Shown in pieces: positions 10,309 to 63,809 of a stretch of 64,000 nucleotides of DNA. Origin of the DNA: Candidatus Dojkabacteria bacterium (GTDB taxonomy: Bacteria > Patescibacteriota > Dojkabacteria > SC72); contig DUTP01000001.1 in assembly GCA_012842045.1 (NCBI GenBank), positions 28,534 to 92,533 on the forward strand, written 5' to 3'. The translations under genes and the position numbers were made by a program. Under the pieces are notes generated by a model, which saw nothing but the letters and a program-made list of their open reading frames with translations, was not told the DNA's origin and ran no database searches. The number at the start of each line of letters is the position of its first letter. The stretch's first letter is position 1.

Positions 10309-11838
10309 TTAGGTTTTTAATAATCTTATAACCTCTTCCGGATGTACAGCATACTCTTGAGCTTTTTGTACAGATATCAAACCTTCCCTTACTAAACCTA
10401 CAAGTGATTTCTCTAAATACATCATGCCTACATCCGAACTTGTTCTGATTACATTATCAATCTGATATGTTTTACCCTCTCTAATAAGGTTCGAGATAGC
10501 AGAATTATTAAACATAACTTCCGAAACAGCTCTTCTACCACCTCTATCTAATGGTATTAATCTCTGAGCAATAACAACTTGTAAAATATTAGAAAGTTGA
10601 GACCTAACCTGTGGTTGTTGATTCTCTGGGAACACATCTATGACTCGATCGATTGTCTGAGAAGCATTGTTCGTATGTAGAGTGGCAAAGACCAAGTGAC
10701 CTGTTTCTGCTAGTGTAATAGCAGCTGCAATTGTTTCGTAGTCTCTCATTTCACCGACAAGAATAACATCAGGATCTTGCCTCATTGCACTTCTTAAAGC
10801 AACAGCCCAAGAGTTAGTATCATCATTCATCTCTCTTTGGTCAATCAATGCTTTCTTACCATCGAAGATATATTCAATTGGGTCTTCTATAGTAATAATA
10901 TGTTCAAATCTATTCCTATTAATATCTTCTAACATAGCAGCAAGTGTAGTACTTTTACCATGCCCCGTAGGACCTGTCACTAACACCAGACCTTGTTTTA
11001 ACTTTGTAATCTGATAATACACTTGAGGTAAAGATAATTCCTCAATGGTTTTAACTCTAGTAGGAATTAATCTAAAAGCCGCTGAGAGATTCTTCATAGA
11101 ATAGAAGGCATTAACTCGGAATCTACCTGTCTGATCTCCTTGGTGCGAATATGCAAAATCTATTTCCCTATTAACTTCTAGTAATTCCTTCTTATCATCA
11201 GGAACGATAGAAAGAATTAATTTTTCTGATTCCTCCGAAGAGAGAGGCTGTTCTCCAATATCAACAAGTTGACCATCAATCCTAATGACAGGAGGATATC
11301 CCACTGAAATATGTAAGTCGGATGCATTCCTTTTTATAACCTCCTCAAAAAGCACGCCCATTGTAAATGTTGTAGTCCCAATATCAACGACTGCATGACC
11401 ATCTCCCCCCTGTATCTTAGGAGAGAGAGGTTCGGAGAGATTATCTTCTTTTTTATCCCTCTTCATAGCCCTGACTACATGTTGCTCTGGCATAATCTTT
11501 TCAAGAGAATCACTCCAAACTTCCTGTTGAGACGGTTGCTGAACAGCAGGGGAAGTATCTAGATTAGGCAACGGTGTAACTTCCTGCACATATCCTGTCT
11601 GAGTCGCATTGGACTGAATTTCTGAAGTAGGGGGAGTATCTATTAATTCCCCAATGTTTTTTTTAAGTTCATCTAGTTTCTGCTGATCTATATAAGTGGA
11701 CGTACTATTGTCTGCAGCTGGAACTCCCGACTGGGTTGACGAAGTAGCAGGAGGAGTAACTTGTGATTGCTGATGAGAAAAATCAGAGTAACCAAACTGA
11801 ATACCAGCATCATTTTGATTTTGGGCAGTGTTTTGCAT
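10309..11838 (-). CDS. pilT: Twitching-motility/retraction ATPase PilT-like with a ~150-aa low-complexity N-terminal extension
   Basis: Walker A GPTGHGKSTT, Walker B/Asp box IITIEDPIEY, His box ATLHTNNA, and PilT-type core length. The N-terminus is rich in Q/S/T/P. Confidence 0.8.
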   Translation of the reverse strand: MQNTAQNQNDAGIQFGYSDFSHQQSQVTPPATSSTQSGVPAADNSTSTYIDQQKLDELKKNIGELIDTPPTSEIQSNATQTGYVQEVTPLPNLDTSPAVQQPSQQEVWSDSLEKIMPEQHVVRAMKRDKKEDNLSEPLSPKIQGGDGHAVVDIGTTTFTMGVLFEEVIKRNASDLHISVGYPPVIRIDGQLVDIGEQPLSSEESEKLILSIVPDDKKELLEVNREIDFAYSHQGDQTGRFRVNAFYSMKNLSAAFRLIPTRVKTIEELSLPQVYYQITKLKQGLVLVTGPTGHGKSTTLAAMLEDINRNRFEHIITIEDPIEYIFDGKKALIDQREMNDDTNSWAVALRSAMRQDPDVILVGEMRDYETIAAAITLAETGHLVFATLHTNNASQTIDRVIDVFPENQQPQVRSQLSNILQVVIAQRLIPLDRGGRRAVSEVMFNNSAISNLIREGKTYQIDNVIRTSSDVGMMYLEKSLVGLVREGLISVQKAQEYAVHPEEVIRLLKT

Positions 11839-11858
11839 GTTTTAATATACCAAAAAAT

Positions 11859-13679
11859 TTATTCTTTAGAAACCCTCAACACTTCTTCAAGTGTTGTAAT
11901 TCCTTCTAATGCCTTAAGATAACCATCTTGTATCATAGTTATCATCCCTTGTTCTATAGCTGCATTCCTAATGTCAGTATCCGTGACATCCTCCATTATC
12001 ATTCTACTAATCTTTTCAGTGATATCCAAAACTTCAAATATACCTGTCCTACCTGCATATCCTGTACCACCACAAAAATCACAGCCTTTACCCTTGTAGA
12101 GATACACAACTGGTACTCCATCTGGACCAACCTCTGGAGCTTTTAAAACAGTTGGTTCCGCTCCTTCTGCATTAGCAGAACTGTTCTTTGATGCAACTAA
12201 TTTATTTATATAAGCAATCAAGTCAAAACCATTAACGCTACCCATCACCTCATTAATATTCCTAAGTACCTCAGGAGTAACAGGATACGCTTCAATACAT
12301 TTCTTACAAATTCTTCTGGGCAACCTCTGTGCTGCCACAGTTCGAATAGTGGAAGCAAGCAGATAAGGTTCAATACCCATATCTACCAATCTTGGAATAG
12401 CAGCAGCTGCACTGTTCGTATGTAAAGTAGAGAGTACTAAGTGACCTGTTAGTGATGCCTGAACAGCAAGCTGAGCTGTCTCTCCGTCTCTAATTTCTCC
12501 AACCATTACAATATCAGGATCCTGTCTTAACACAGCTCTTAGAGCATTAGCAAAGGTAAGACCGACATCATCATTTATCTGTACCTGTGTAACACCAGGC
12601 ACTCTAATTTCGACAGGATTTTCCAATGATATAATATTAACCTTTGGATCATTAACCTTCATCAAAGAACATGCTAAGGTACGTGTCTTACCACTACCTG
12701 TTGGACCTGTAACCAAAACAATACCATTTGTCACAGAAAGTGCATCTACAAAAACCTTATAAGCATGACCTCTTAAACCCGTATCCTCTAAAGAGATATT
12801 TTCTGTGTCTGATTCTAACAATCTAAGCACAACCTTTTCACCATAAATCATCGGCATAATTGAGACTCTGACATCTATCTTACTTCCGTTCACCTGAATC
12901 TGGAACCTGTTATCTTGAGGGATTCTCTTCTCATCAATCTTCAGATTAGACATAATTTTAATTCTAGAAACAATCGCTGCACTAAGAGTTCTAGGCAATG
13001 TAAGTCTCTCTGTCATAACACCATTGATTCTAAACCTCACTCTAACCCTGTTTTCTAACACCTCTATATGGACATCTGATGATTTTGATTTTACAGCATA
13101 TTGAAGTATAGAATTAACAATTCTTGCAACAGGAGCAGAACCTATATCCCCAGAGAGTGCTTCTAAAGAATCGTCTGGACCAGCATCTAGTGTCGTCACT
13201 GGGATATTAGCATCCTCCAATGCATCTGCAACCTGAGCCCCCATCATGTCCCCAACTCTCCTATCTAATATCAACGATATGCTTGCTGGTGTTGAAATAT
13301 ACACCTGCACTCTTGTATCTTGTGGATACTTACTTTGAAGAGCCTGCGTTGCCTGAATATCGAAAGGATCTTCCATCGCAATCTTGACATATCCTTGCCC
13401 CCTCTCAAAAGGCACAGCCCTGTATCTCGACAGATTATCAATAGGGACCTCTGATAATACCCCTTCAGGAACAGTAATTGTTGAAAGGTCTATAAACGGG
13501 ATATTAAATATGGCAGATTTAGCTTTTGCCAAAACATCTTCATCAACCAGATTTAATTCTTTTATAATAACCTCTTCTGTTTTGTTACTCTTAGTCCTTT
13601 CTAACAGAACCTTCCTCACACCCTCACTATCGATAAGGTTGTTCTGCTGAAGATATTTAAGTAATGATGTCTGAGACAT
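11859..13679 (-). CDS. pilB: Type IV pilus assembly (extension) ATPase PilB (GspE family)
   Basis: GspE N-terminal domain, Walker A GPTGSGKT, His box LSTLHTN, C-terminal tetracysteine CKKC...CDFCGGTG zinc motif. Confidence 0.9.
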   Translation of the reverse strand: MSQTSLLKYLQQNNLIDSEGVRKVLLERTKSNKTEEVIIKELNLVDEDVLAKAKSAIFNIPFIDLSTITVPEGVLSEVPIDNLSRYRAVPFERGQGYVKIAMEDPFDIQATQALQSKYPQDTRVQVYISTPASISLILDRRVGDMMGAQVADALEDANIPVTTLDAGPDDSLEALSGDIGSAPVARIVNSILQYAVKSKSSDVHIEVLENRVRVRFRINGVMTERLTLPRTLSAAIVSRIKIMSNLKIDEKRIPQDNRFQIQVNGSKIDVRVSIMPMIYGEKVVLRLLESDTENISLEDTGLRGHAYKVFVDALSVTNGIVLVTGPTGSGKTRTLACSLMKVNDPKVNIISLENPVEIRVPGVTQVQINDDVGLTFANALRAVLRQDPDIVMVGEIRDGETAQLAVQASLTGHLVLSTLHTNSAAAAIPRLVDMGIEPYLLASTIRTVAAQRLPRRICKKCIEAYPVTPEVLRNINEVMGSVNGFDLIAYINKLVASKNSSANAEGAEPTVLKAPEVGPDGVPVVYLYKGKGCDFCGGTGYAGRTGIFEVLDITEKISRMIMEDVTDTDIRNAAIEQGMITMIQDGYLKALEGITTLEEVLRVSKE

Positions 13680-13797
13680 TACACTGGGCAGTATTCATAT
13701 TATCTCTTCCAGTTTAAGATAAAAAGGAATAATAGTCAACGAAGTTATATAACAAACTAGGTTCCATACTGTTCAGTAGTATGTGGTAAAATGAAAT

Positions 13798-14490
13798 ATG
13801 ACATATATTCTAGTTAACAAACAAGAAGACAGTAAAAAGGTTACTTTAAGGAAGTTTCTCAAGGAGATTTTTAAGAGAGAAATAACTTTAGAAGAACTCT
13901 ATACAAATCCAGATATTCATAATTTAGAGATTACTGACAAATTAAGCATAGGAATTGAAGATGTGAAAGATTTTCAAGCCAAACTAATTTACAAACCATT
14001 CCAAGAAGAAAAACAGGTTGGCATCATTCATTCTTCACAGAAACTTACTCATGAGGCACAGAACTCCCTTCTTAAAAGTCTAGAAGAGAGTGGAGACAAC
14101 ACAATATATATTCTCTGTGTTGACAATCAAAGAAATTTACTTCCAACAATCAGATCAAGGGCTAGAATTATCTATATCAAAAAACAAGAAAATAATGAAG
14201 AAGAGCAGGAGAGAGAAAAAGAGAAAGATTTTCTTAAAAAAGATTTAGTCGAACAATTTGAGATTGCCGAAAAAGCTTCTTCTAGTAGGGAGCTTTCCAT
14301 AGAGTTCATAAACACAATTGAAAAAATATTAAGAGAGGAGTTTGAAATTAAAATTAAAAATGGTAGTATTGAGGGTTCTAAAAAAATTCTAGAGGACTTG
14401 AAAGTAGTTGGCAAAAGTAGGGAGAAGATAGTCTCAAATTGTAATAGGAGATTGACTTTAGAAGCCATGGTTATGCAGTTAAGAATTTAA
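13798..14490 (+). CDS. holB: DNA polymerase III delta-prime-like clamp-loader subunit (minimal; lacks the P-loop region)
   Basis: Sensor and SRC-type motifs AQNSLLKSLEE and TIRSRARIIY typical of HolB/DnaX box VII-VIII. An HPD-like NPDIH is present. There is no Walker A segment at the N-terminus. Confidence 0.55.
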   Translation: MTYILVNKQEDSKKVTLRKFLKEIFKREITLEELYTNPDIHNLEITDKLSIGIEDVKDFQAKLIYKPFQEEKQVGIIHSSQKLTHEAQNSLLKSLEESGDNTIYILCVDNQRNLLPTIRSRARIIYIKKQENNEEEQEREKEKDFLKKDLVEQFEIAEKASSSRELSIEFINTIEKILREEFEIKIKNGSIEGSKKILEDLKVVGKSREKIVSNCNRRLTLEAMVMQLRI

Positions 14491-14515
14491 CTTTGTATGC
14501 TAAAAATGATATAAT
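14486..14515 (+). promoter_or_regulatory. Putative extended -10 promoter for gyrB
   Basis: TGaTATAAT extended -10 at 14507-14515, about 60 nt upstream of the gyrB ATG; the -35 is weak. Confidence 0.35.
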
Positions 14516-14565
14516 ATAGATAGACCAGTTCTCGGAATTGTAAAGGTTTAACTTACACTTTTTGA

Positions 14566-16485
<1,920 letters not shown>

Positions 16486-16501
16486 CTTTTATATTAAAAA
16501 C

Positions 16502-17050
16502 ATGAATACTGATCTACAAGAAAACATAAATGAGGCTAATGAACATCAAAACAAACCAGCTAGCTTCTACGATGTTGCAACTATGCTTAATCCAGAAGCA
16601 AAATATATTGCTCAAGATTCAGCATCTGGTAGTGCAAAAACAAATATAGAATTGGCTCTAACAAAAGCATTAGACGATAACGGGAAAGCAAGCAGAACAA
16701 TCGTAGACATATTAGATTTAGATGGAACTGAAATAGGAGCACTAATGAGGAAATGTGCAGGTTTACCTAGGAAAGATGAGGAAAAAGACGACTCTTTGGT
16801 ATACACAAGTGATAGAGAACCAGATAGACAAAGAACAATGTTTCTACTTTTTCACAACCATGATGAGAAGAATACATATCAATGTATAATGCTTAGGAAA
16901 AAACGAGAAAGACCTTGGGAAATAGACCCTCAAAATGTAATGTGGGAAGATATAGATATTAGTGTGGATGAGGAAACAGCAGAAGAATTAGATGCAGTTA
17001 TGTATGAATTGAAATCTAAGTTTAGGGATAATCTTTTAGCTTTAAATTAA
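16502..17050 (+). CDS. Hypothetical acidic protein encoded between gyrB and gyrA
   Basis: 182-aa ORF, no TM, no recognisable motif; compact spacing with gyrB (16 nt) and gyrA (21 nt) suggests co-transcription. Confidence 0.5.
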   Translation: MNTDLQENINEANEHQNKPASFYDVATMLNPEAKYIAQDSASGSAKTNIELALTKALDDNGKASRTIVDILDLDGTEIGALMRKCAGLPRKDEEKDDSLVYTSDREPDRQRTMFLLFHNHDEKNTYQCIMLRKKRERPWEIDPQNVMWEDIDISVDEETAEELDAVMYELKSKFRDNLLALN

Positions 17051-17071
17051 CAAGAGATTCTAGTTTTTAAA

Positions 17072-19813
17072 ATGGATGAAGATAAAAAAACAACACAAGA
17101 AAATATAGATACAGTAGAGCAGAACTCCACATACAATTCTGGAGAGATTACTAACAGATCAATCGTAGATGAAATGAAAGGTAACTACCTTGACTACTCT
17201 ATGTCCGTAATCGTCTCAAGAGCTCTACCAGAAGTAAAGGATGGGCTTAAGCCATCACAAAGAAGAATTCTTGTAGCTATCAATGATTTAGGCCTAACAC
17301 CTTCTTCTCATTACAGAAAATGTGCAAAAATTGCAGGAGATACATCAGGTAACTACCATCCACATGGTGAGGTTGTAATATATCCAACCTTAGTAAAAAT
17401 GGCTCAAGACTTCTCCATGAGATATCCATTAGTAGATGGACAAGGAAACTTTGGTTCCATTGATGGAGATGAAGCAGCAGCCATGAGATACACAGAGGCG
17501 AGAATGGGGAAGATTACACCAGAACTCATTAATGAGATAAACAAGGGAACGGTAACATTCATACCAAACTATGACGGCACAAGACTAGAACCAACAGTAT
17601 TACCTGCAGGTTTTCCAAATGTACTAGCAAATGGTGGAGATGGAATTGCAGTAGGTATGGCTACGAAGATACCTCCTCATAACCTAACAGAATTAATTAC
17701 TGCTTTACAAAAAATGATTTCCCTAGGTAACAAATGGGAAGGTAAAGCAGTATATGATGAATTAAGAAAACAGAAAGAAAAAGGTGAGAGAATCCCACAA
17801 TTACTTAATGCACAACCAGCTGATTACTTAGAAAACTACATAGATACAAAAGATGCTACCAACCAAGAGGTAATTGATACTCTAAGAGCAAAGATAGCAG
17901 AAGATGGAAATGTCCTCTATCCTGAATTTAAATCGGACATTACTCCAGAAGAGTTAGTTGAGATAATACCAGGACCTGACTTCCCAACAGGAGCAACAAT
18001 ATATGACAGAGAAGAAATCCTTAACACATATGCAACCGGTAGGGGAAGAATATTACAAAGAGCAAAAGCATCAATTGTAGAGGGCAAACAAGGAAAATAC
18101 CAAATCGTTATCACCGAAATACCTTTCCAAGTAAACAAAGCAAACCTCATTACAAAGATTGCTGACTTGGTAAAGGATAAAAAGATTAAAGGAATTTCCG
18201 ACATTATAGATGAATCCAATATCGAAGGAATGAGAGTTGTTGTATATCTCAAGAGAGATGCACAACCAAAGGCAGTTCTAAACAAGCTCTACAAATATAC
18301 AGAGATGCAAAAAGTCTTCAATGCCAATATGATTGCATTGGTTGACAAAGAGCCAAAGACATTACCACTTAAGAGATTCTTAGAACTCTTCCTTTCTTTC
18401 AGATTAGTAGTAACAATCAGAAGATTTGAATTTGATTTAGCACAAGCAAGATACAGATCTCATATCTTAGAAGGATTACTTAAAGCAATTGATATGCTTG
18501 ATGAGGTAATTGCTACAATTAGAGCTTCAAAAACACAAGAAACAGCAAAAACAAACTTAATGGATAAGTTTGATTTTACAGAAGTACAAGCCCAAGCAAT
18601 TTTGGATATGCAGTTAAGAAGATTAGCAGCACTTGAGAGAATGAAATTGCAGAACGAACAAAAAGAATTGAAAGAGAAGATTAAGGAATTAAATACTCTT
18701 CTTGAAGATCCAGAGAAGATGTTGGAAGTTGTAGATGCTGATCTTGAGATTATTAAAGAAAAGTTTGGAGATGAAAGAAGAACAAAGGTTGTAAAAGGTA
18801 AAGTTGATGAGATATCTGAAGAAGACATGATTGCTTCCGAAGATACTTTAGTAACAATTACCAACTCTGGATATGTAAAGAGATTAAATCCAAATACATA
18901 CAAAGCACAGAATAGGGGAGGCAAGGGTGTTTCAGGAGGAGAAACAAAAGAAGGAGATTTCATAGAACATGCTTTCTTGTGTAATACTCATGATGAACTA
19001 CTACTTTTCACAAACAAAGGTAAAGTATATACACTTCGAATATTTGAAATCCCTGATTTAGGTAGAACAGCAAAAGGCTTACCTATCGTTAATCTTGTAC
19101 AACTAGACCCCGATGAACTTATAACTTCAGTATTAACCAGAGATCCAAAGGGTAAGATTGCAGAAGGAAAGAGTACAGAAGAGGCTAAAGAGAAGGAAAT
19201 AGCAAGAGAGTACAAATATCTTTTGATGGCAACAGAGAATGGTGTTGTAAAGAAAACTGCACTCCCTGAGTTTAAGAAGATTAGAGCAAATGGTTTAGTA
19301 GCAATTAAGTTAGATGAAGGAGATCAATTGATAGGGGTTAAAGCTACAACAGGTGATGACCAAGCAATTATCCTCACAAGGGAAGGTAAGTCTGTGAGAT
19401 TTAAAGAAACAGATGTTAGACCTATGGGTAGAAGTACAAGAGGTGTAACAGGTATTAAGTTTAGAAGTAAAGAGGATAGGGTAGTAGGTATTGGAATTGT
19501 AGAGAGTGATGAACAGCAACTTCTAACTCTTTCGGAATATGGTTATGGTAAGATGACACCACTTAAAGAGTATGCAACTCAGAAGAGAGGTGGTACAGGT
19601 ATCTTCACATTTAGAGTAACACCAAAGACAGGTAATGTAGCTTGTGCAAGAATCTTAAGAGAAGAAGATGAAGAGATTGTTGTAATATCTGAGAAATCCA
19701 AGGTTATTAGAGCAGATCTTAAGGATGTGCCAAAGCTCAAGAGACAAACTTCAGGTGTAAAGATGATGAATATTGGAACTGGTGATAAAGTAGCAACAGT
19801 AGCTATACTCTAA
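17072..19813 (+). CDS. gyrA: DNA gyrase subunit A (with a ~75-aa insertion and an N-terminal extension)
   Basis: Active-site AAAMRYTEARM, QRRILVA, GPDFPTG motifs and C-terminal beta-pinwheel repeats. 913 aa. Confidence 0.95.
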   Translation: MDEDKKTTQENIDTVEQNSTYNSGEITNRSIVDEMKGNYLDYSMSVIVSRALPEVKDGLKPSQRRILVAINDLGLTPSSHYRKCAKIAGDTSGNYHPHGEVVIYPTLVKMAQDFSMRYPLVDGQGNFGSIDGDEAAAMRYTEARMGKITPELINEINKGTVTFIPNYDGTRLEPTVLPAGFPNVLANGGDGIAVGMATKIPPHNLTELITALQKMISLGNKWEGKAVYDELRKQKEKGERIPQLLNAQPADYLENYIDTKDATNQEVIDTLRAKIAEDGNVLYPEFKSDITPEELVEIIPGPDFPTGATIYDREEILNTYATGRGRILQRAKASIVEGKQGKYQIVITEIPFQVNKANLITKIADLVKDKKIKGISDIIDESNIEGMRVVVYLKRDAQPKAVLNKLYKYTEMQKVFNANMIALVDKEPKTLPLKRFLELFLSFRLVVTIRRFEFDLAQARYRSHILEGLLKAIDMLDEVIATIRASKTQETAKTNLMDKFDFTEVQAQAILDMQLRRLAALERMKLQNEQKELKEKIKELNTLLEDPEKMLEVVDADLEIIKEKFGDERRTKVVKGKVDEISEEDMIASEDTLVTITNSGYVKRLNPNTYKAQNRGGKGVSGGETKEGDFIEHAFLCNTHDELLLFTNKGKVYTLRIFEIPDLGRTAKGLPIVNLVQLDPDELITSVLTRDPKGKIAEGKSTEEAKEKEIAREYKYLLMATENGVVKKTALPEFKKIRANGLVAIKLDEGDQLIGVKATTGDDQAIILTREGKSVRFKETDVRPMGRSTRGVTGIKFRSKEDRVVGIGIVESDEQQLLTLSEYGYGKMTPLKEYATQKRGGTGIFTFRVTPKTGNVACARILREEDEEIVVISEKSKVIRADLKDVPKLKRQTSGVKMMNIGTGDKVATVAIL

Positions 19814-19825
19814 TAATCCAAAGTT

Positions 19826-20053
19826 TCAACAACTATTCATTCTAGTAATATTAAAATCCCTGTTATACTCATCCCCTGAGAGTTCTACAATATTCTTAGA
19901 GAGTTCCTCATAACTCATCCAACTATCATCAACTTTCTTTTTTACAGACTTCTTAACAATTTTCTCTAAATTCTTTATCTGTTTCTCATACTTTTCAAGC
20001 TCACAAGCTAAAAGTGTTGATATCATTACAAAATCTTCTTTTGATAGTGTCAT
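19826..20053 (-). CDS. Small hypothetical protein (75 aa)
   Basis: ATG at 20053 with an AGGT about 9 nt upstream; coiled-coil-like, no known motif. Confidence 0.35.
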   Translation of the reverse strand: MTLSKEDFVMISTLLACELEKYEKQIKNLEKIVKKSVKKKVDDSWMSYEELSKNIVELSGDEYNRDFNITRMNSC

Positions 20054-20180
20054 ATTTTTACCTACTTAATTTAATATCTATATTCTACATTGGCCTAAAA
20101 TATACTTCCTCACCTAGATAAGAATATAAAAAGCTTATATAATATCTTAACCCTAATATAAAAATATATATTGTAACCAT

Positions 20181-21029
20181 ATGATTTTTACCAATATTCT
20201 TAAAAAAATAATCATCTCAATATCACTTGCTCTTCTTTTTGGACAACAAGATATTGATTTAATTAAACAAAAAGAGATTAATCCTCCACAAGAGGAAGCC
20301 ACGGAAGCAGTTGCCGAAGAAGAAGAAAAAGAAGTTGAGATTGCTATAGAAGAAAAAAAAGAAGTCAGTACTCCACCCCAAAAAGCATCTAAACAGAAAG
20401 TAGAAACACAAAAGAATTGGTGGTCATATCCTACAGATATCAAGCCAACAAAAAGACATGGAGATGACCTATTAGTACTAGTAAACAAAGAATATGCTCT
20501 TTCTGCTGATTATGTTCCTGCAGATTTAGTTTCAGCTGCAAAATCAGGTATTAGAAAAGGAAATCAACATATGGTTAGAAATATAGTAATAGCTGATTTA
20601 ACAGAATTAGTTAAAGCAGCTAAAAATGATGGCATAGACCTTAGTATTAGGTCAGGATATAGGTCATATAGTACACAGGTTAGTACATATCAATATTGGC
20701 TTAGATATAACAATAATGTAGCAGATAATGCTGATAAAGTTTCTGCTAGAGCTGGACATAGTCAACACCAATTAGGTACAGCAATTGATTTTAGTACATC
20801 AGAAATACAGGATGGAATAGGGGGGAGATTTCATACAACAAAAGCGGCAAAGTGGTTAGAGGAGAATGCTTGGTGTTATGGTTTTGTAATATCATTTCCA
20901 CAAGGATATGAATCAGTAACTGGTTATAATTATGAGAGTTGGCATTATAGATATATTGGTAAAGATAATGCATTAGAGATGATTAATAGTGGAAAGATAT
21001 TAGAAGTATATCTTAGGGAGAAGAATTAA
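20181..21029 (+). CDS. D-alanyl-D-alanine carboxypeptidase, peptidase M15B (VanY-like), membrane or secreted
   Basis: N-terminal hydrophobic segment. M15 zinc-ligand motifs SGYRSYSTQ, HSQHQLGTAIDF and ESWHYRYIG. Confidence 0.8.
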   Translation: MIFTNILKKIIISISLALLFGQQDIDLIKQKEINPPQEEATEAVAEEEEKEVEIAIEEKKEVSTPPQKASKQKVETQKNWWSYPTDIKPTKRHGDDLLVLVNKEYALSADYVPADLVSAAKSGIRKGNQHMVRNIVIADLTELVKAAKNDGIDLSIRSGYRSYSTQVSTYQYWLRYNNNVADNADKVSARAGHSQHQLGTAIDFSTSEIQDGIGGRFHTTKAAKWLEENAWCYGFVISFPQGYESVTGYNYESWHYRYIGKDNALEMINSGKILEVYLREKN

Positions 21030-62015: not shown

Positions 62016-63659
62016 TTATGAATTTTCTACAGAGATATCTTCTTTTCTAACTTTCTCTGTAATGTAGAAGTTCCTCTTAAACTTACCCTTGCCCAACATC
62101 ATCTCTGTAATTGCTTGTACATGAGGTATCAAATTGAATGTTAACATATTCACAGAGAGTAGAAATGTCTCTAAAATATCTAAAATATTTCTCCATATAC
62201 TCCAATCTTTAGGGATAGGCGTTATCTTTCTCCTTGCCCTAACAGTCCACATATTTACAATCATGGCAAATGTCAAAAAGTAACTGATAATTCTAGGAAG
62301 ATTGTATGGGAAAATTGTATGTTTGTAATCAGGATTGAGAACTGATATCAAAAAGCCACCAAAGGTAAGAACAACTACAACTGTAAAAAGCCACATCTGT
62401 TCTGTCACCGCTTTAAACATCTGTGTTCTTTTAAACAATGATATGCCACTTCCTCTTCTTAGAATAACGGAAAGCATAATTGGGAATGGTATCTTACCCC
62501 AACCCCATCTGTACTGCTGTTTGTAGAATGAGACATGTGTACTCACAAAATCCTTATTCTCAACTGCATCACTATATGTTGGAGTATATACTTCGAAACT
62601 TTTAAAAGTACCTTTACTCCTTACCATAGTATTCCAGTAAAATGCAGTATCATCATTTGGTATCTCTGGATCCCAATACTCCATCTCTTTGAGAGTATTT
62701 AAATTGACAATATATGAGGAGAAAGTATCTTTCGTATAGAATTCTTCCCCAGTAAACAATGATTTCACCGTTTTCTCCACCACCCAAGTGTATGCTGTCG
62801 CCATGGTTGTCATATTGGAGGAATTTCTAATCAATGATGGTACATTCCAAATATTATTATTAAACGTATGTATAGCTGATGTGAAAAATGCATACTCCGG
62901 ATTCTCAACTGTCATATACCTATACGTTATAGCGGAGAGATACTTCTCATGAGGTCTTAAATCTGAATCACATGTAATCAGTAGGTAGTCCCTTAAATTC
63001 TTACCCTCCTTTTCTAGTTTCTCTACAAAATGTCTAGTTGCATAGTTAATGTTAGCTCCTTTAACTCCAGCTATTTCACCAGGAATACCTGCAGGGTGAA
63101 TATAATATTGCATACTTCCAAATTTATCACCATATTTCTTCTTTAACTTTTTGAAATTTTCAATTTGAAGATCCTGTTTTTTCTCTTCAATAGCCATTAC
63201 AACATCAATTTTTTTAGCACCAATATCACTCTTTGACCAAGCTTCAAAAGATGGGTCTAGAATATTGTACTCTTCACCATATACAGGGCAGAGATAAATA
63301 TATCTTAAGTCTTCAACCCTGTCATCATTCAACTCCTCTACTTTTTTGACCCAATCTGTTTCTATAGCTTTTTCCATCCTTTTTACAGCTATATTAACCC
63401 CAACTGTAAATCTAATTGCTCTAAAGAACCAATATGCTACTATAAAGGCCATATAGATAACATATGCTGTTGTCAGTCTAAATACTGCAAAAATTATAGG
63501 AAGAAGTAGAAGTGTCCAGAGAAGAAAGCCTGGAATAATTTCAAATATTCTTCTTTGCCAATATGGTAAATCTTTAGGGAAACCTTCAAACCTGTCCTTT
63601 GGCCTATATGTTTTATGATTTAAATCCTTATCCTTTTTAGTTTCAGAATTCTTTTTCAT
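62016..63659 (-). CDS. Processive family-2 glycosyltransferase (cellulose/chitin/hyaluronan synthase-like) integral membrane protein
   Basis: Multiple TM helices flanking a cytoplasmic GT-A domain with a DSD (D,D) motif and the QQYRWGWG (QxxRW) processivity motif. The track ORF N-terminus is mistranslated tRNA; ATG at 63659. Confidence 0.6.
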   Translation of the reverse strand: MKKNSETKKDKDLNHKTYRPKDRFEGFPKDLPYWQRRIFEIIPGFLLWTLLLLPIIFAVFRLTTAYVIYMAFIVAYWFFRAIRFTVGVNIAVKRMEKAIETDWVKKVEELNDDRVEDLRYIYLCPVYGEEYNILDPSFEAWSKSDIGAKKIDVVMAIEEKKQDLQIENFKKLKKKYGDKFGSMQYYIHPAGIPGEIAGVKGANINYATRHFVEKLEKEGKNLRDYLLITCDSDLRPHEKYLSAITYRYMTVENPEYAFFTSAIHTFNNNIWNVPSLIRNSSNMTTMATAYTWVVEKTVKSLFTGEEFYTKDTFSSYIVNLNTLKEMEYWDPEIPNDDTAFYWNTMVRSKGTFKSFEVYTPTYSDAVENKDFVSTHVSFYKQQYRWGWGKIPFPIMLSVILRRGSGISLFKRTQMFKAVTEQMWLFTVVVVLTFGGFLISVLNPDYKHTIFPYNLPRIISYFLTFAMIVNMWTVRARRKITPIPKDWSIWRNILDILETFLLSVNMLTFNLIPHVQAITEMMLGKGKFKRNFYITEKVRKEDISVENS

Positions 63660-63677
63660 AATTACATCATTATACAA

Positions 63678-63764
63678 CGGAGAGAGTGGGATTCGAACCC
63701 ACGGTACAGAAGACTGTACAACGGTTTTCAAGACCGTCTCTTTCGACCACTCAGACATCTCTCC
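63678..63764 (-). tRNA. tRNA-Ser (anticodon UGA), type II with long variable arm; CCA not encoded
   Basis: Manual fold: acceptor GGAGAGA/TCTCTCC+G, anticodon stem ACGGT/ACCGT with loop CTTGAAA, variable stem GTACAG/CTGTAC, T-arm GTGGG-TTCGAAT-CCCAC. Confidence 0.85.
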
Positions 63765-63809
63765 AATGCCGATAATTATACCATATTAACAAGAACAATT
63801 ATGAAAAAG

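What the first reader, a model, noticed from the sequence alone, without database searches (positions are those of the whole stretch)
16502..17050. Unknown 182-aa acidic ORF inserted inside the gyrB-gyrA operon
gyrB and gyrA are usually adjacent or separate. Here a tightly spaced ORF sits between them, 16 nt after gyrB and 21 nt before gyrA.
- It has no TM and no recognisable domain, including no pentapeptide repeats or YacG zinc finger.
- Co-transcription with gyrase suggests a gyrase-associated factor, inhibitor or protector, or a selfish insertion.
Basis: partly seen in the sequence, partly recalled or inferred. Interest (0 to 1): 0.5.

Follow-up and report, generated by a model that had tools for sequence, protein, structure and literature searches.

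The report
Fast-evolving orphan gene inside gyrase operon
A real 182-residue acidic protein gene of unknown function sits between the two DNA gyrase genes of an uncultivated Dojkabacteria bacterium; it belongs to an undescribed, very fast-evolving family found only in that slot, and strains with almost identical gyrase genes carry versions too different to align.

Summary
ORF 16502-17050 lies 16 nt after gyrB and 21 nt before gyrA. Its codon usage is clearly coding. It matches nothing in Pfam, NCBIfam, PHROGs, PADLOC or PDB sequences, and its AlphaFold2 model has no fold match.

The gene is not an isolated insertion. In a Candidatus Dojkabacteria subclade, 17 distinct related loci carry one same-strand ORF of 128-182 aa starting 16-20 nt after gyrB. 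These ORFs form four sequence types (A-D). Profile comparisons, a collinear alignment and matching predicted secondary-structure order suggest one hyperdivergent family. All members are acidic and soluble.

Within a type the gene is under relaxed purifying selection (dN/dS about 0.2-0.3; dN about 9 times that of gyrB). Between strains the types are shuffled. One relative has 97% identical gyrB and gyrA DNA but a slot ORF that cannot be aligned. Several lineages have lost the gene cleanly. Sister lineages and other phyla hold unrelated genes in the same slot.

The function is not shown. My best guess, at low confidence, is a dispensable gyrase-linked acidic modulator or protector. An operon passenger unrelated to gyrase is nearly as likely. 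No mobile-element or diversity-generating retroelement (DGR) signature was found.

The parts
14487..14515 (+). Promoter-like site upstream of gyrB (TTAACT, 17 nt, TATAAT, preceded by TG)
   Evidence: This is a consensus match only. The number of such sites in the region (20) equals the shuffle expectation (22.8), so the evidence is weak.
14575..16485 (+). gyrB, DNA gyrase subunit B (636 aa)
   Evidence: Pfam HATPase_c, DNA_gyraseB, Toprim and DNA_gyraseB_C.
16486..16501 (+). 16-nt AT-rich spacer between the gyrB stop and the ORF start (CTTTTATATTAAAAAC)
   Evidence: In 17 related loci the spacer is 16-20 nt and AT-rich. TTTTTTACATTAATAA is shared by a type A locus (L003) and a type B locus (L010), and type B L013 differs from it at one base.
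16502..17050 (+). ORF X, 182 aa. It is the type A member of an orphan family confined to the gyrB-gyrA slot.
16565..16756 (+). X residues 22-85: predicted N-terminal helical bundle of five helices
   Evidence: AlphaFold2 on an 11-sequence alignment. Block-mean pLDDT is 71-86 for residues 21-90; overall mean pLDDT is 72.3 and pTM 0.68.
16781..16825 (+). X residues 94-108: low-confidence, charged linker. It is variable in length across the family and nearly absent in type B.
   Evidence: pLDDT below 50; family alignment.
16832..17044 (+). X residues 111-181: predicted beta-hairpin, short helix and long C-terminal helix. The C-terminal helix begins with the only motif shared by most members of all four types (E-T-x-x-x-L).
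17051..17071 (+). 21-nt spacer between the ORF stop and the gyrA start
   Evidence: Where gyrA directly follows the slot ORF in relatives, the spacer is 3-18 nt.
17072..19813 (+). gyrA, DNA gyrase subunit A (913 aa)
   Evidence: Pfam DNA_topoisoIV and DNA_gyraseA_C. Best PDB matches are GyrA chains, E = 6e-152.

Best explanation
ORF X is a genuine protein-coding gene of an undescribed, lineage-restricted family. The family arose in, and has stayed in, the gap between gyrB and gyrA in a subclade of Candidatus Dojkabacteria.

Shown:
- The gene is coding and sits in the gyrBA gene cluster with no terminator-like site.
- Its relatives are found only at this position.
- The family evolves very fast under relaxed purifying selection.
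- It is dispensable, having been lost several times.
- Its divergent types are reshuffled relative to the gyrase genes.
- The protein is predicted to be a soluble, acidic, two-domain protein: a helical bundle, a flexible linker, then a beta-hairpin and a long helix.

Inferred:
- The reshuffling happens by homologous recombination that uses the conserved gyrB and gyrA sequences as anchors.
- Because X is made from the same transcript as both gyrase subunits, I take it to be a non-essential gyrase-linked factor.
- What the family conserves is net negative charge and architecture, not sequence. X would therefore most likely act through charge or shape complementarity with a DNA-binding surface of gyrase. 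One example is the basic DNA-wrapping C-terminal domain of GyrA, which here ends without an acidic tail. X would then tune gyrase activity or shield it from gyrase-directed poisons.
- The divergent types would then reflect weak sequence constraint, strain-level conflict, or both.
For: Coding and real:
- Codon log-odds are in-frame only.
- dN/dS is 0.19-0.29 in within-type pairs, against 0.02-0.04 for gyrB.
- The AlphaFold2 model has mean pLDDT 72 and pTM 0.68.
- The identical protein occurs on at least 15 contigs from different samples.

Position:
- 17 distinct related loci carry one same-strand ORF 16-20 nt after gyrB.
- Every database homologue whose contig was fetched lies between gyrB and gyrA.
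- Family profiles hit only slot ORFs among 4,238 ORFs of all fetched loci.
- Only 4 proteins among 1.84 billion representatives match X at E <= 1e-3.

One family:
- hhalign scores were A-D 36.0 and B-D 39.7, against column-shuffle nulls of about 11 +/- 2. A-C scored 24.3, above all 100 shuffles.
- HMMER found cross-type hits: B to L082 at 7e-8, D to L010 at 3e-4, A to L004 at 3e-3.
- The family alignment is collinear.
- Types A and C give the same order of predicted secondary-structure elements.

Co-expression: no + strand terminator-like site lies within 13600-20300.

Charge: all 27 members have pI 4.35-5.62 and net charge -5 to -18.

Reshuffling:
- Window versus L001 DNA identity is 91-100% per 100 nt (mostly 95-100%) through gyrB and gyrA. 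It falls to 23-63% (with gaps) in the 100-nt blocks between the end of gyrB and the start of gyrA.
- For that pair, gyrB dS is 0.11 and gyrA dS is 0.15-0.17.
- Type C is nested among type A lineages in the gyrB tree.
- The window and L177 show 0 differences over 16292-17591, against 1-9 per 100 nt in most of the rest of gyrB and gyrA.
Against: - No direct evidence of any contact with gyrase; the link rests on gene position only.
- That position is partly protected by selection on the gyrBA operon itself, so conserved synteny is weaker evidence than usual.
- Slot proteins with 26% identity (no better than a forced alignment) sit next to GyrB and GyrA that are 99.5% and 99.2% identical in protein, so there is no co-variation.
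- The gene was lost in about 4-5 lineages with no change in GyrA or GyrB length.
- Unrelated cargo fills the same gap in basal Dojkabacteria and in other phyla.
- The pI of 4.6 is only in the lowest tenth of proteins in this window.
Confidence: 0.38

Rival explanations
1. Operon passenger. X is a functional accessory protein with no role in gyrase. It merely uses a constitutively expressed essential operon for expression. Its highly divergent, recombining types reflect strain-level conflict or recognition, for example an orphan immunity, decoy or anti-phage function, maintained by balancing or diversifying selection.
For: - The same gap holds unrelated genes elsewhere: GH3 plus DUF4013 in L015 and L016, a Phd/PIN toxin-antitoxin pair in L140, and an outer-membrane-barrel-like ORF in L111.
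- The gene is dispensable.
- Very different types pair with near-identical gyrases.
- The neighbourhood is a recombination mosaic. An AbiE toxin-antitoxin pair is inserted just after gyrA in some strains, and the pilus genes are highly divergent at dS about 1.
Against: - No hit in PADLOC or PHROGs, and no viral relatives.
- No partner toxin or effector gene lies next to it.
- The family is never found outside the gyrB-gyrA gap in the fetched loci or among the homologues whose contigs were looked up. That is odd for a generic passenger.
- dN/dS is below 1 overall.
Confidence: 0.35
2. Spacer ORF. What matters is translation of an ORF between gyrB and gyrA, for example to set the GyrB:GyrA ratio through coupling. 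The encoded protein has little or no function of its own, which would explain the extreme divergence.
For: - Spacings on both sides are tight and conserved: 16-20 nt upstream and 3-21 nt downstream.
- Sequence conservation across types is very poor.
- Clean deletions are tolerated.
Against: - Within-type dN/dS of 0.19-0.29 shows selection on the protein sequence.
- Types A and C are predicted to fold with the same architecture.
- Length and net negative charge are conserved.
- The X allele is identical at the DNA level in strains whose gyrB and gyrA differ by about 2%. That identity lies inside a 1.3-kb tract with no differences at all.
Confidence: 0.08
3. Selfish mobile cassette. X would be a free-standing homing-endonuclease-like or otherwise self-mobilising gene that targets the gyrB-gyrA junction, or a target of a diversity-generating retroelement.
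For: - Presence/absence polymorphism with precise boundaries between two highly conserved genes.
- Different types occupy the same site.
- An identical cassette occurs in diverged flanks.
- A 17-nt imperfect inverted repeat brackets X in the window (12/14, 0 of 200 controls).
Against: - No nuclease, integrase, transposase or reverse-transcriptase domain in X or its neighbours.
- The protein is acidic, unlike DNA-cleaving homing enzymes (my knowledge).
- The inverted repeat is absent in the 13 other loci tested.
- No template-like repeat of X exists anywhere in the 64-kb window.
- The allele is stable across at least 15 contigs.
- Identity tracts of the same kind occur elsewhere in the region, so ordinary homologous recombination suffices.
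Confidence: 0.05

Closest known systems
Small chromosomal gyrase regulators and protectors: YacG, GyrI/SbmC, and pentapeptide-repeat proteins MfpA/Qnr/McbG/AlbG (named from my own knowledge)
   Same: They are small, soluble proteins thought or shown to act on gyrase. MfpA and Qnr are acidic DNA mimics. X is likewise small, soluble and acidic, and is co-located with gyrase.
   Different: - No sequence match and no fold match.
- X has no zinc finger (only 2 Cys) and no pentapeptide repeats. Its model is alpha/beta, not a beta-helix.
- To my knowledge none of the known factors is encoded between gyrB and gyrA or shows highly divergent allelic types.
- Any interaction of X with gyrase is untested.
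Acidic C-terminal tail of E. coli GyrA, a cis-acting regulator of DNA wrapping (Tretter and Berger 2012, recalled from memory)
   Same: It is a negatively charged element of low sequence conservation that modulates the basic GyrA C-terminal domain. The GyrA in this window ends directly after its last C-terminal-domain repeat (…GDKVATVAIL) without such a tail. X could supply negative charge in trans.
   Different: X is a separate, predicted folded protein rather than a disordered tail. This is an analogy only and nothing was tested.
DNA-mimic proteins such as Neisseria DMP12 and DMP19 (PMC3643605, PMC3384305) and phage Ocr
   Same: [quoted passage not shown] Their sequences are poorly conserved, and charge distribution is what matters.
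   Different: X is only moderately acidic (pI 4.6, net charge -15 over 182 aa). Its surface charge pattern could not be examined, and there is no fold match.
Hypervariable allelic cassettes flanked by conserved genes, such as free-standing homing-endonuclease genes between conserved phage genes, or pherotype and immunity loci (my knowledge)
   Same: - Sharp boundaries at the conserved flanks.
- Mutually unalignable versions at one site.
- Presence/absence polymorphism.
- Exchange by recombination in the flanks.
   Different: There is no nuclease or other mobility domain, no partner toxin or signal gene, no viral relatives, and no conserved flanking repeats.
Other cargo found here between gyrB and gyrA: GH3 plus DUF4013 (L015, L016), Phd/PIN (L140), outer-membrane-barrel-like ORF (L111)
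   Same: They occupy the same intergenic slot, on the same strand, inside the gyrBA gene pair.
   Different: These proteins are unrelated to X and have recognisable domains. X's family has none.

Membership tests
Pentapeptide-repeat gyrase protectors (Qnr, MfpA, McbG, AlbG) | Tandem A(D/N)LXX pentapeptide repeats (Pfam Pentapeptide families) that form a right-handed beta-helix | tested here: not met
YacG | Protein of about 60 aa with a four-cysteine zinc finger that binds GyrB | tested here: not met
   X has 182 aa and only 2 Cys. Most family members have 0-1 Cys. No Pfam or NCBIfam hit.
GyrI/SbmC | GyrI-like small-molecule-binding domain (SHS2 fold) | tested here: not met
Gyrase-poisoning toxins and their antitoxins (CcdB/CcdA, ParE/ParD) | CcdB or RelE/ParE fold, with an adjacent cognate partner gene | tested here: not met
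   No family or fold match. The only neighbours are gyrB and gyrA.
DNA-mimic proteins (a functional class) | Surface array of carboxylates that mimics the DNA phosphate backbone; binds a DNA-binding protein | tested here: inconclusive
   Net negative charge is conserved in all 27 members, at -5 to -18, but it is only moderately extreme for this genome.
Free-standing homing endonuclease genes | GIY-YIG, HNH, LAGLIDADG, His-Cys box or PD-(D/E)xK nuclease domain | tested here: not met
   No Pfam, NCBIfam or PHROGs hit for any of the four types.
Free-standing homing endonuclease genes | Sporadic presence between conserved genes, with co-conversion of the flanks | tested here: inconclusive
   The gene is sporadically present, and a zero-difference tract is centred on the slot in the window versus L177. 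Similar identity tracts occur elsewhere in the region.
Diversity-generating retroelement target genes | Variable repeat in the gene, a nearby template repeat, and a reverse transcriptase | tested here: not met
   No repeat of the slot DNA longer than 13 nt exact (27 nt at 81%) in the 64-kb window. The allele is identical on at least 15 contigs. Differences between types span the whole gene.
Known anti-phage defence or phage protein families | Match to a PADLOC or PHROGs profile, or a relative on viral contigs | tested here: not met
   PADLOC gave no hit for X or for types B and C, and one insignificant hit for L082 at E 0.61. PHROGs gave only E >= 0.029. No relatives in IMG/VR. BFVD fold search found nothing at E <= 1e-3.
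The slot family itself (types A-D, defined here) | Single same-strand ORF of 128-182 aa starting 16-20 nt after the gyrB stop and ending just before gyrA | tested here: met
   Window: 16 nt and 21 nt spacers. Relatives.
The slot family itself (types A-D, defined here) | Detectable homology among the types | tested here: met
   A-D, B-D and A-C hhalign scores lie above all 100 column shuffles, and A-B is above 99 of 100. HMMER finds cross-type hits for A-D and B-D. Type C is linked only weakly, by hhalign at 24.3, by position and by the same order of secondary-structure elements.

The most novel reading that the evidence does not exclude
The slot encodes a new class of gyrase partner specific to these ultra-small bacteria. 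It would be a trans-acting acidic protein that either sets gyrase activity or shields gyrase from gyrase-directed toxins or phage factors. It would be kept as a few very old, mutually unalignable alleles within one recombining population by balancing selection. This would make it an intracellular 'serotype-like' polymorphism wired into an essential enzyme's operon.
Probability: 0.18. Interest if true: 0.75.

Novelty: new variant of a known kind. Interest (0 to 1): 0.45.

Why it matters
Gyrase is an essential enzyme and a major antibiotic target. Few proteins that regulate or protect it are known, and to my knowledge none is encoded between its two subunit genes. If X binds gyrase, it would be a new kind of partner, found in a poorly understood group of bacteria with very small genomes. 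It would also be testable in vitro with recombinant proteins.

Whatever its function, the locus is a clean example of deeply divergent versions of one gene being exchanged between strains through recombination in flanking essential genes. That is useful for studying recombination and balancing selection in uncultivated populations.

If X is only a passenger, the finding is of limited interest: one more orphan accessory gene.

Tried and rejected
Searches that found nothing:
- Pfam, NCBIfam, PHROGs and PADLOC for X and for representatives of types B, C and D.
- PDB sequence searches with X alone and with the type A and type B profiles.
- IMG/VR scan with the type A profile: no relatives.
- Literature searches for a gene between gyrB and gyrA, and for Dojkabacteria plus gyrase: nothing relevant.

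Ideas tested and rejected:
- Paralogue elsewhere in the window, or origin from a piece of GyrA or GyrB: no hit.
- Diversity-generating retroelement or template repeat: none.
- Conserved flanking inverted repeats as a site-specific recombination signal: present only in the window, not in 13 other loci.
- 'The slot is specially swept': identical slot DNA in strains with 2-13% divergent gyrB looked striking. Difference profiles then showed the whole region is a patchwork of identical and divergent tracts, so I do not claim a slot-specific sweep.

Not done:
- A complex prediction of X with GyrA or GyrB.
- A superposition of the type A and type C models.

Full report
**1. Is the observation right?** Yes.
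- The ORF list gives gyrB at 14575-16485, a 182-aa ORF at 16502-17050 and gyrA at 17072-19813, all on the + strand. The spacers are 16 and 21 nt.
- The flanking genes carry the full Pfam domain sets of GyrB and GyrA. The best solved relatives of the GyrA N-terminal half are GyrA chains at E = 6e-152.
- X has pI 4.59, net charge -15, no hydrophobic segment and two cysteines.
- Nothing matches in Pfam (best DUF5457, E 0.11), NCBIfam or PDB sequences.
- The ORF is not a chance reading frame. Its in-frame codon log-odds (0.413) equals that of the 31 long genes of the window (0.380 +/- 0.098). The other five frames score -0.31 to -1.23, and 182 stop-free codons have probability about 1.5e-6 at this composition.
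- Its GC content does not differ from its neighbours.

**2. Where does it occur?**
- The identical protein is annotated as a hypothetical protein of a Candidatus Dojkabacteria bacterium.
- An exhaustive HMMER scan of 1.84 billion representative proteins found only four proteins at E <= 1e-3, all 173-182 aa. A profile search of the 5.8-billion-protein set found nine clusters.
- I fetched contigs for six of these: P0001, P0004, P0007, P0011, P0012 and P0013. In every one the gene lies between gyrB and gyrA, 17-18 nt after gyrB.
- X itself, with the identical amino-acid sequence, is on at least 15 contigs from different samples.

**3. What do relatives have in the slot?** I fetched gyrB loci from species-representative genomes and gyrA loci from metagenomes.
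- In the Dojkabacteria clade (GyrB 75-100% identical to the window's), 17 distinct loci have one same-strand ORF of 128-182 aa. It starts 16-20 nt after the gyrB stop and ends just before gyrA.
- About a dozen loci have gyrB and gyrA directly adjacent.
- The two most basal loci hold a GH3 hydrolase plus another gene instead.
- By BLASTP the slot ORFs fall into four types:
  - Type A includes the window, L002, L003 and L005, at about 175 aa.
  - Type B has nine loci, at about 130-140 aa.
  - Type C is L001 and L081, at about 170 aa.
  - Type D is L004 and L082, at about 157 aa.

**4. Are the types one family?** Probably.
- Profile-profile scores were A-D 36.0 and B-D 39.7, against column-shuffle nulls of 11.6 +/- 2.0 and 11.1 +/- 1.8. 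A-C scored 24.3, against a null maximum of 19.7 in 100 shuffles. A-B scored 19.7, reached by 1 of 100 shuffles. Reversed controls score near the null.
- Among 4,238 ORFs of all fetched loci, the type profiles hit only slot ORFs. They cross types in several cases: B to L082 at 7e-8, D to L010 at 3e-4, A to L004 at 3e-3.
- A joint alignment is collinear. It shows two conserved helices, a variable linker, two beta-strands and a C-terminal helix that opens with E-T-x-x-x-L in most members of all four types.
- The AT-rich spacer TTTTTTACATTAATAA after gyrB is shared by a type A locus (L003) and a type B locus (L010), with type B L013 differing at one base. This points to common descent in place.
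- AlphaFold2 predicts the same order of elements for both types modelled. That order is an N-terminal helical bundle, a low-confidence linker of about 15 residues, a beta-hairpin or sheet, a short helix and a long C-terminal helix.
  - Type A: 11 sequences, pLDDT 72.3, pTM 0.68.
  - Type C: only 2 sequences, pLDDT 63.4, pTM 0.64.
- I could not superpose the models, so the fold identity of A and C is an inference. Type C remains the weakest link.
- All 27 members are acidic, with pI 4.35-5.62 and net charge -5 to -18, and none has a membrane segment.

**5. How does it evolve?**
- Within a type the gene is under relaxed purifying selection. For L003 versus L161, slot dN is 0.169, dS 0.64 and dN/dS 0.26. 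gyrB in the same pair has dN 0.019 and dN/dS 0.023. For L005 versus L167, slot dN/dS is 0.21.
- Slot divergence does not track gyrase divergence. GyrB identities of 96.7, 95.9, 94.0 and 99.5% go with slot identities of 72, 28, 35 and 26% respectively.
- The extreme case is the window versus L001.
  - DNA identity per 100 nt is 91-100% (mostly 95-100%) through gyrB and gyrA.
  - It drops to 23-63% (with gaps) in the 100-nt blocks between the end of gyrB and the start of gyrA.
  - gyrB dS is 0.11 and gyrA dS is 0.15-0.17.
  - The two slot ORFs (types A and C) do not find each other by BLASTP, at E 0.9.
  - In-place mutation cannot produce this, so the slot or its flanks were exchanged by recombination.
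- In a GyrB neighbour-joining tree, type C is nested among type A lineages. Type B sits on three branches and is plausibly ancestral. Empty slots are scattered, implying about 4-5 losses (the tree is a quick NJ tree, so these counts are approximate).
- The converse pattern also occurs. Identical slot DNA is found in strains whose gyrB differs by 2-6% (window versus L177; L170 versus L171), and 98.4%-identical slot DNA where gyrB differs by 13% (L001 versus L174).
- Difference profiles explain this. The whole region is a patchwork of identical tracts and imported divergent patches. The window versus L177 has 0 differences over 16292-17591. L170 versus L171 has a 10-19% patch in the 5' half of gyrB.
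- I therefore claim exchange of slot types by ordinary homologous recombination anchored in gyrB and gyrA. I do not claim a slot-specific sweep.
- The genome collection holds one genome per species, and the window's own genome is not among the hits. The window and L001 may therefore be conspecific, which would make A and C alleles within one species. This is an inference I could not test.

**6. What is it not?**
- No pentapeptide repeats, zinc finger or GyrI-like domain.
- No toxin or antitoxin fold, and no nuclease, integrase or reverse transcriptase.
- No relatives on viral contigs.
- No paralogue in the window and no similarity to GyrA or GyrB.
- No template-like repeat.
- A 17-nt imperfect inverted repeat brackets X in the window, but it is not found in 13 other loci.

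**7. How does it most likely work?** The function is not shown by anything here.

For a link to gyrase:
- The family is known only from inside the gyrBA gene pair.
- It has tight, conserved spacing and no terminator-like site between the genes, so it should be made with both subunits.
- What is conserved is negative charge and architecture rather than sequence. That would suit a charge-based interaction with a DNA-binding surface. One candidate is the basic C-terminal domain of GyrA, which here lacks an acidic tail (sequence; the E. coli tail analogy is from my own knowledge).

Against a link to gyrase:
- The gene is dispensable.
- Very different types pair with nearly identical gyrases.
- The position is protected by selection on the operon itself.
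- The same gap carries unrelated cargo in basal Dojkabacteria and in other phyla, including a Phd/PIN toxin-antitoxin pair.

I put a gyrase-linked modulator or protector at about 0.38. An unrelated passenger with a strain-level conflict function is at about 0.35, a spacer ORF at about 0.08 and a selfish or DGR element at about 0.05.

**8. Novelty and verdict.**
- The protein family is undescribed, and its gene position is unusual.
- The evolutionary pattern, divergent cassettes exchanged through conserved flanks, is a known kind of phenomenon.
- Without evidence for a gyrase interaction, this is a well-characterised orphan rather than a new system. Interest is moderate.

Noticed in passing
L001:10249-11701; L164:8359-9805; L170:8395-9841; window junction about 19818-19832: Some strains carry an AbiEi-like gene plus an AbiEii toxin gene (PF08843) inserted directly after gyrA. 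The window lacks this 1.5-kb insertion. The gap downstream of gyrA is therefore a second variable spot.
   Followed up: partly
window 17072-19813 (GyrA residues about 96-109): The quinolone-resistance-determining region reads YHPHGEVVIYPTLV, against S. aureus YHPHGDSSIYEAMV. Ser84 is replaced by Val and Glu88 by Pro. Both residues that anchor the quinolone water-metal bridge are therefore absent, and intrinsic insensitivity is expected (alignment; interpretation from my own knowledge).
   Followed up: partly
window about 17708-17929 (GyrA residues 213-286): GyrA has an insertion of about 74 aa relative to S. aureus GyrA (residues 194-200) within the N-terminal breakage-reunion domain. The similar GyrA lengths (909-939 aa) suggest it is shared by the Dojkabacteria loci, with or without the slot gene.
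   Followed up: no
L077:5001-8222: gyrB of one relative encodes 1073 aa because of an intein (PF14890) inserted in the Toprim region.
   Followed up: partly
L140:3229-3995; L111:3151-3918; L116:279-878; L015:6920-8715; L016:6973-8950: Other lineages also carry genes between gyrB and gyrA. A high-GC bacterium has a Phd antitoxin plus PIN toxin pair. L111 has an ORF with a sub-threshold outer-membrane-barrel hit, and L116 has a similar-looking ORF with no Pfam hit. Basal Dojkabacteria have a GH3 hydrolase plus DUF4013 or an unknown ORF.
   Followed up: partly
L002:7466-8251: One relative has a second orphan ORF (261 aa) between its slot ORF and gyrA. It overlaps the gyrA start by 14 nt and has no Pfam, PHROGs or PADLOC hit.
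   Followed up: partly
window 10309-13679 versus L001: The type IV pilus/secretion ATPase genes upstream are far more diverged between the window and L001 (dS about 1.0-1.16) than holB (0.22), gyrB (0.11), gyrA (0.15) or the small gene downstream (0.04). The region is a recombination mosaic.
   Followed up: partly
window 16491-16507 and 17057-17073: An imperfect 17-nt inverted repeat (82% complementary) brackets ORF X. It stands out against 200 random controls in the window but is not found in 13 other loci, so it is probably not a family feature.
   Followed up: yes
window 63677-63765 (-) and 62016-63758 (-): A tRNA-Ser(tga) gene overlaps the 5' end of a mechanically listed 580-aa ORF. The true start of that gene is presumably further downstream.
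   Followed up: no
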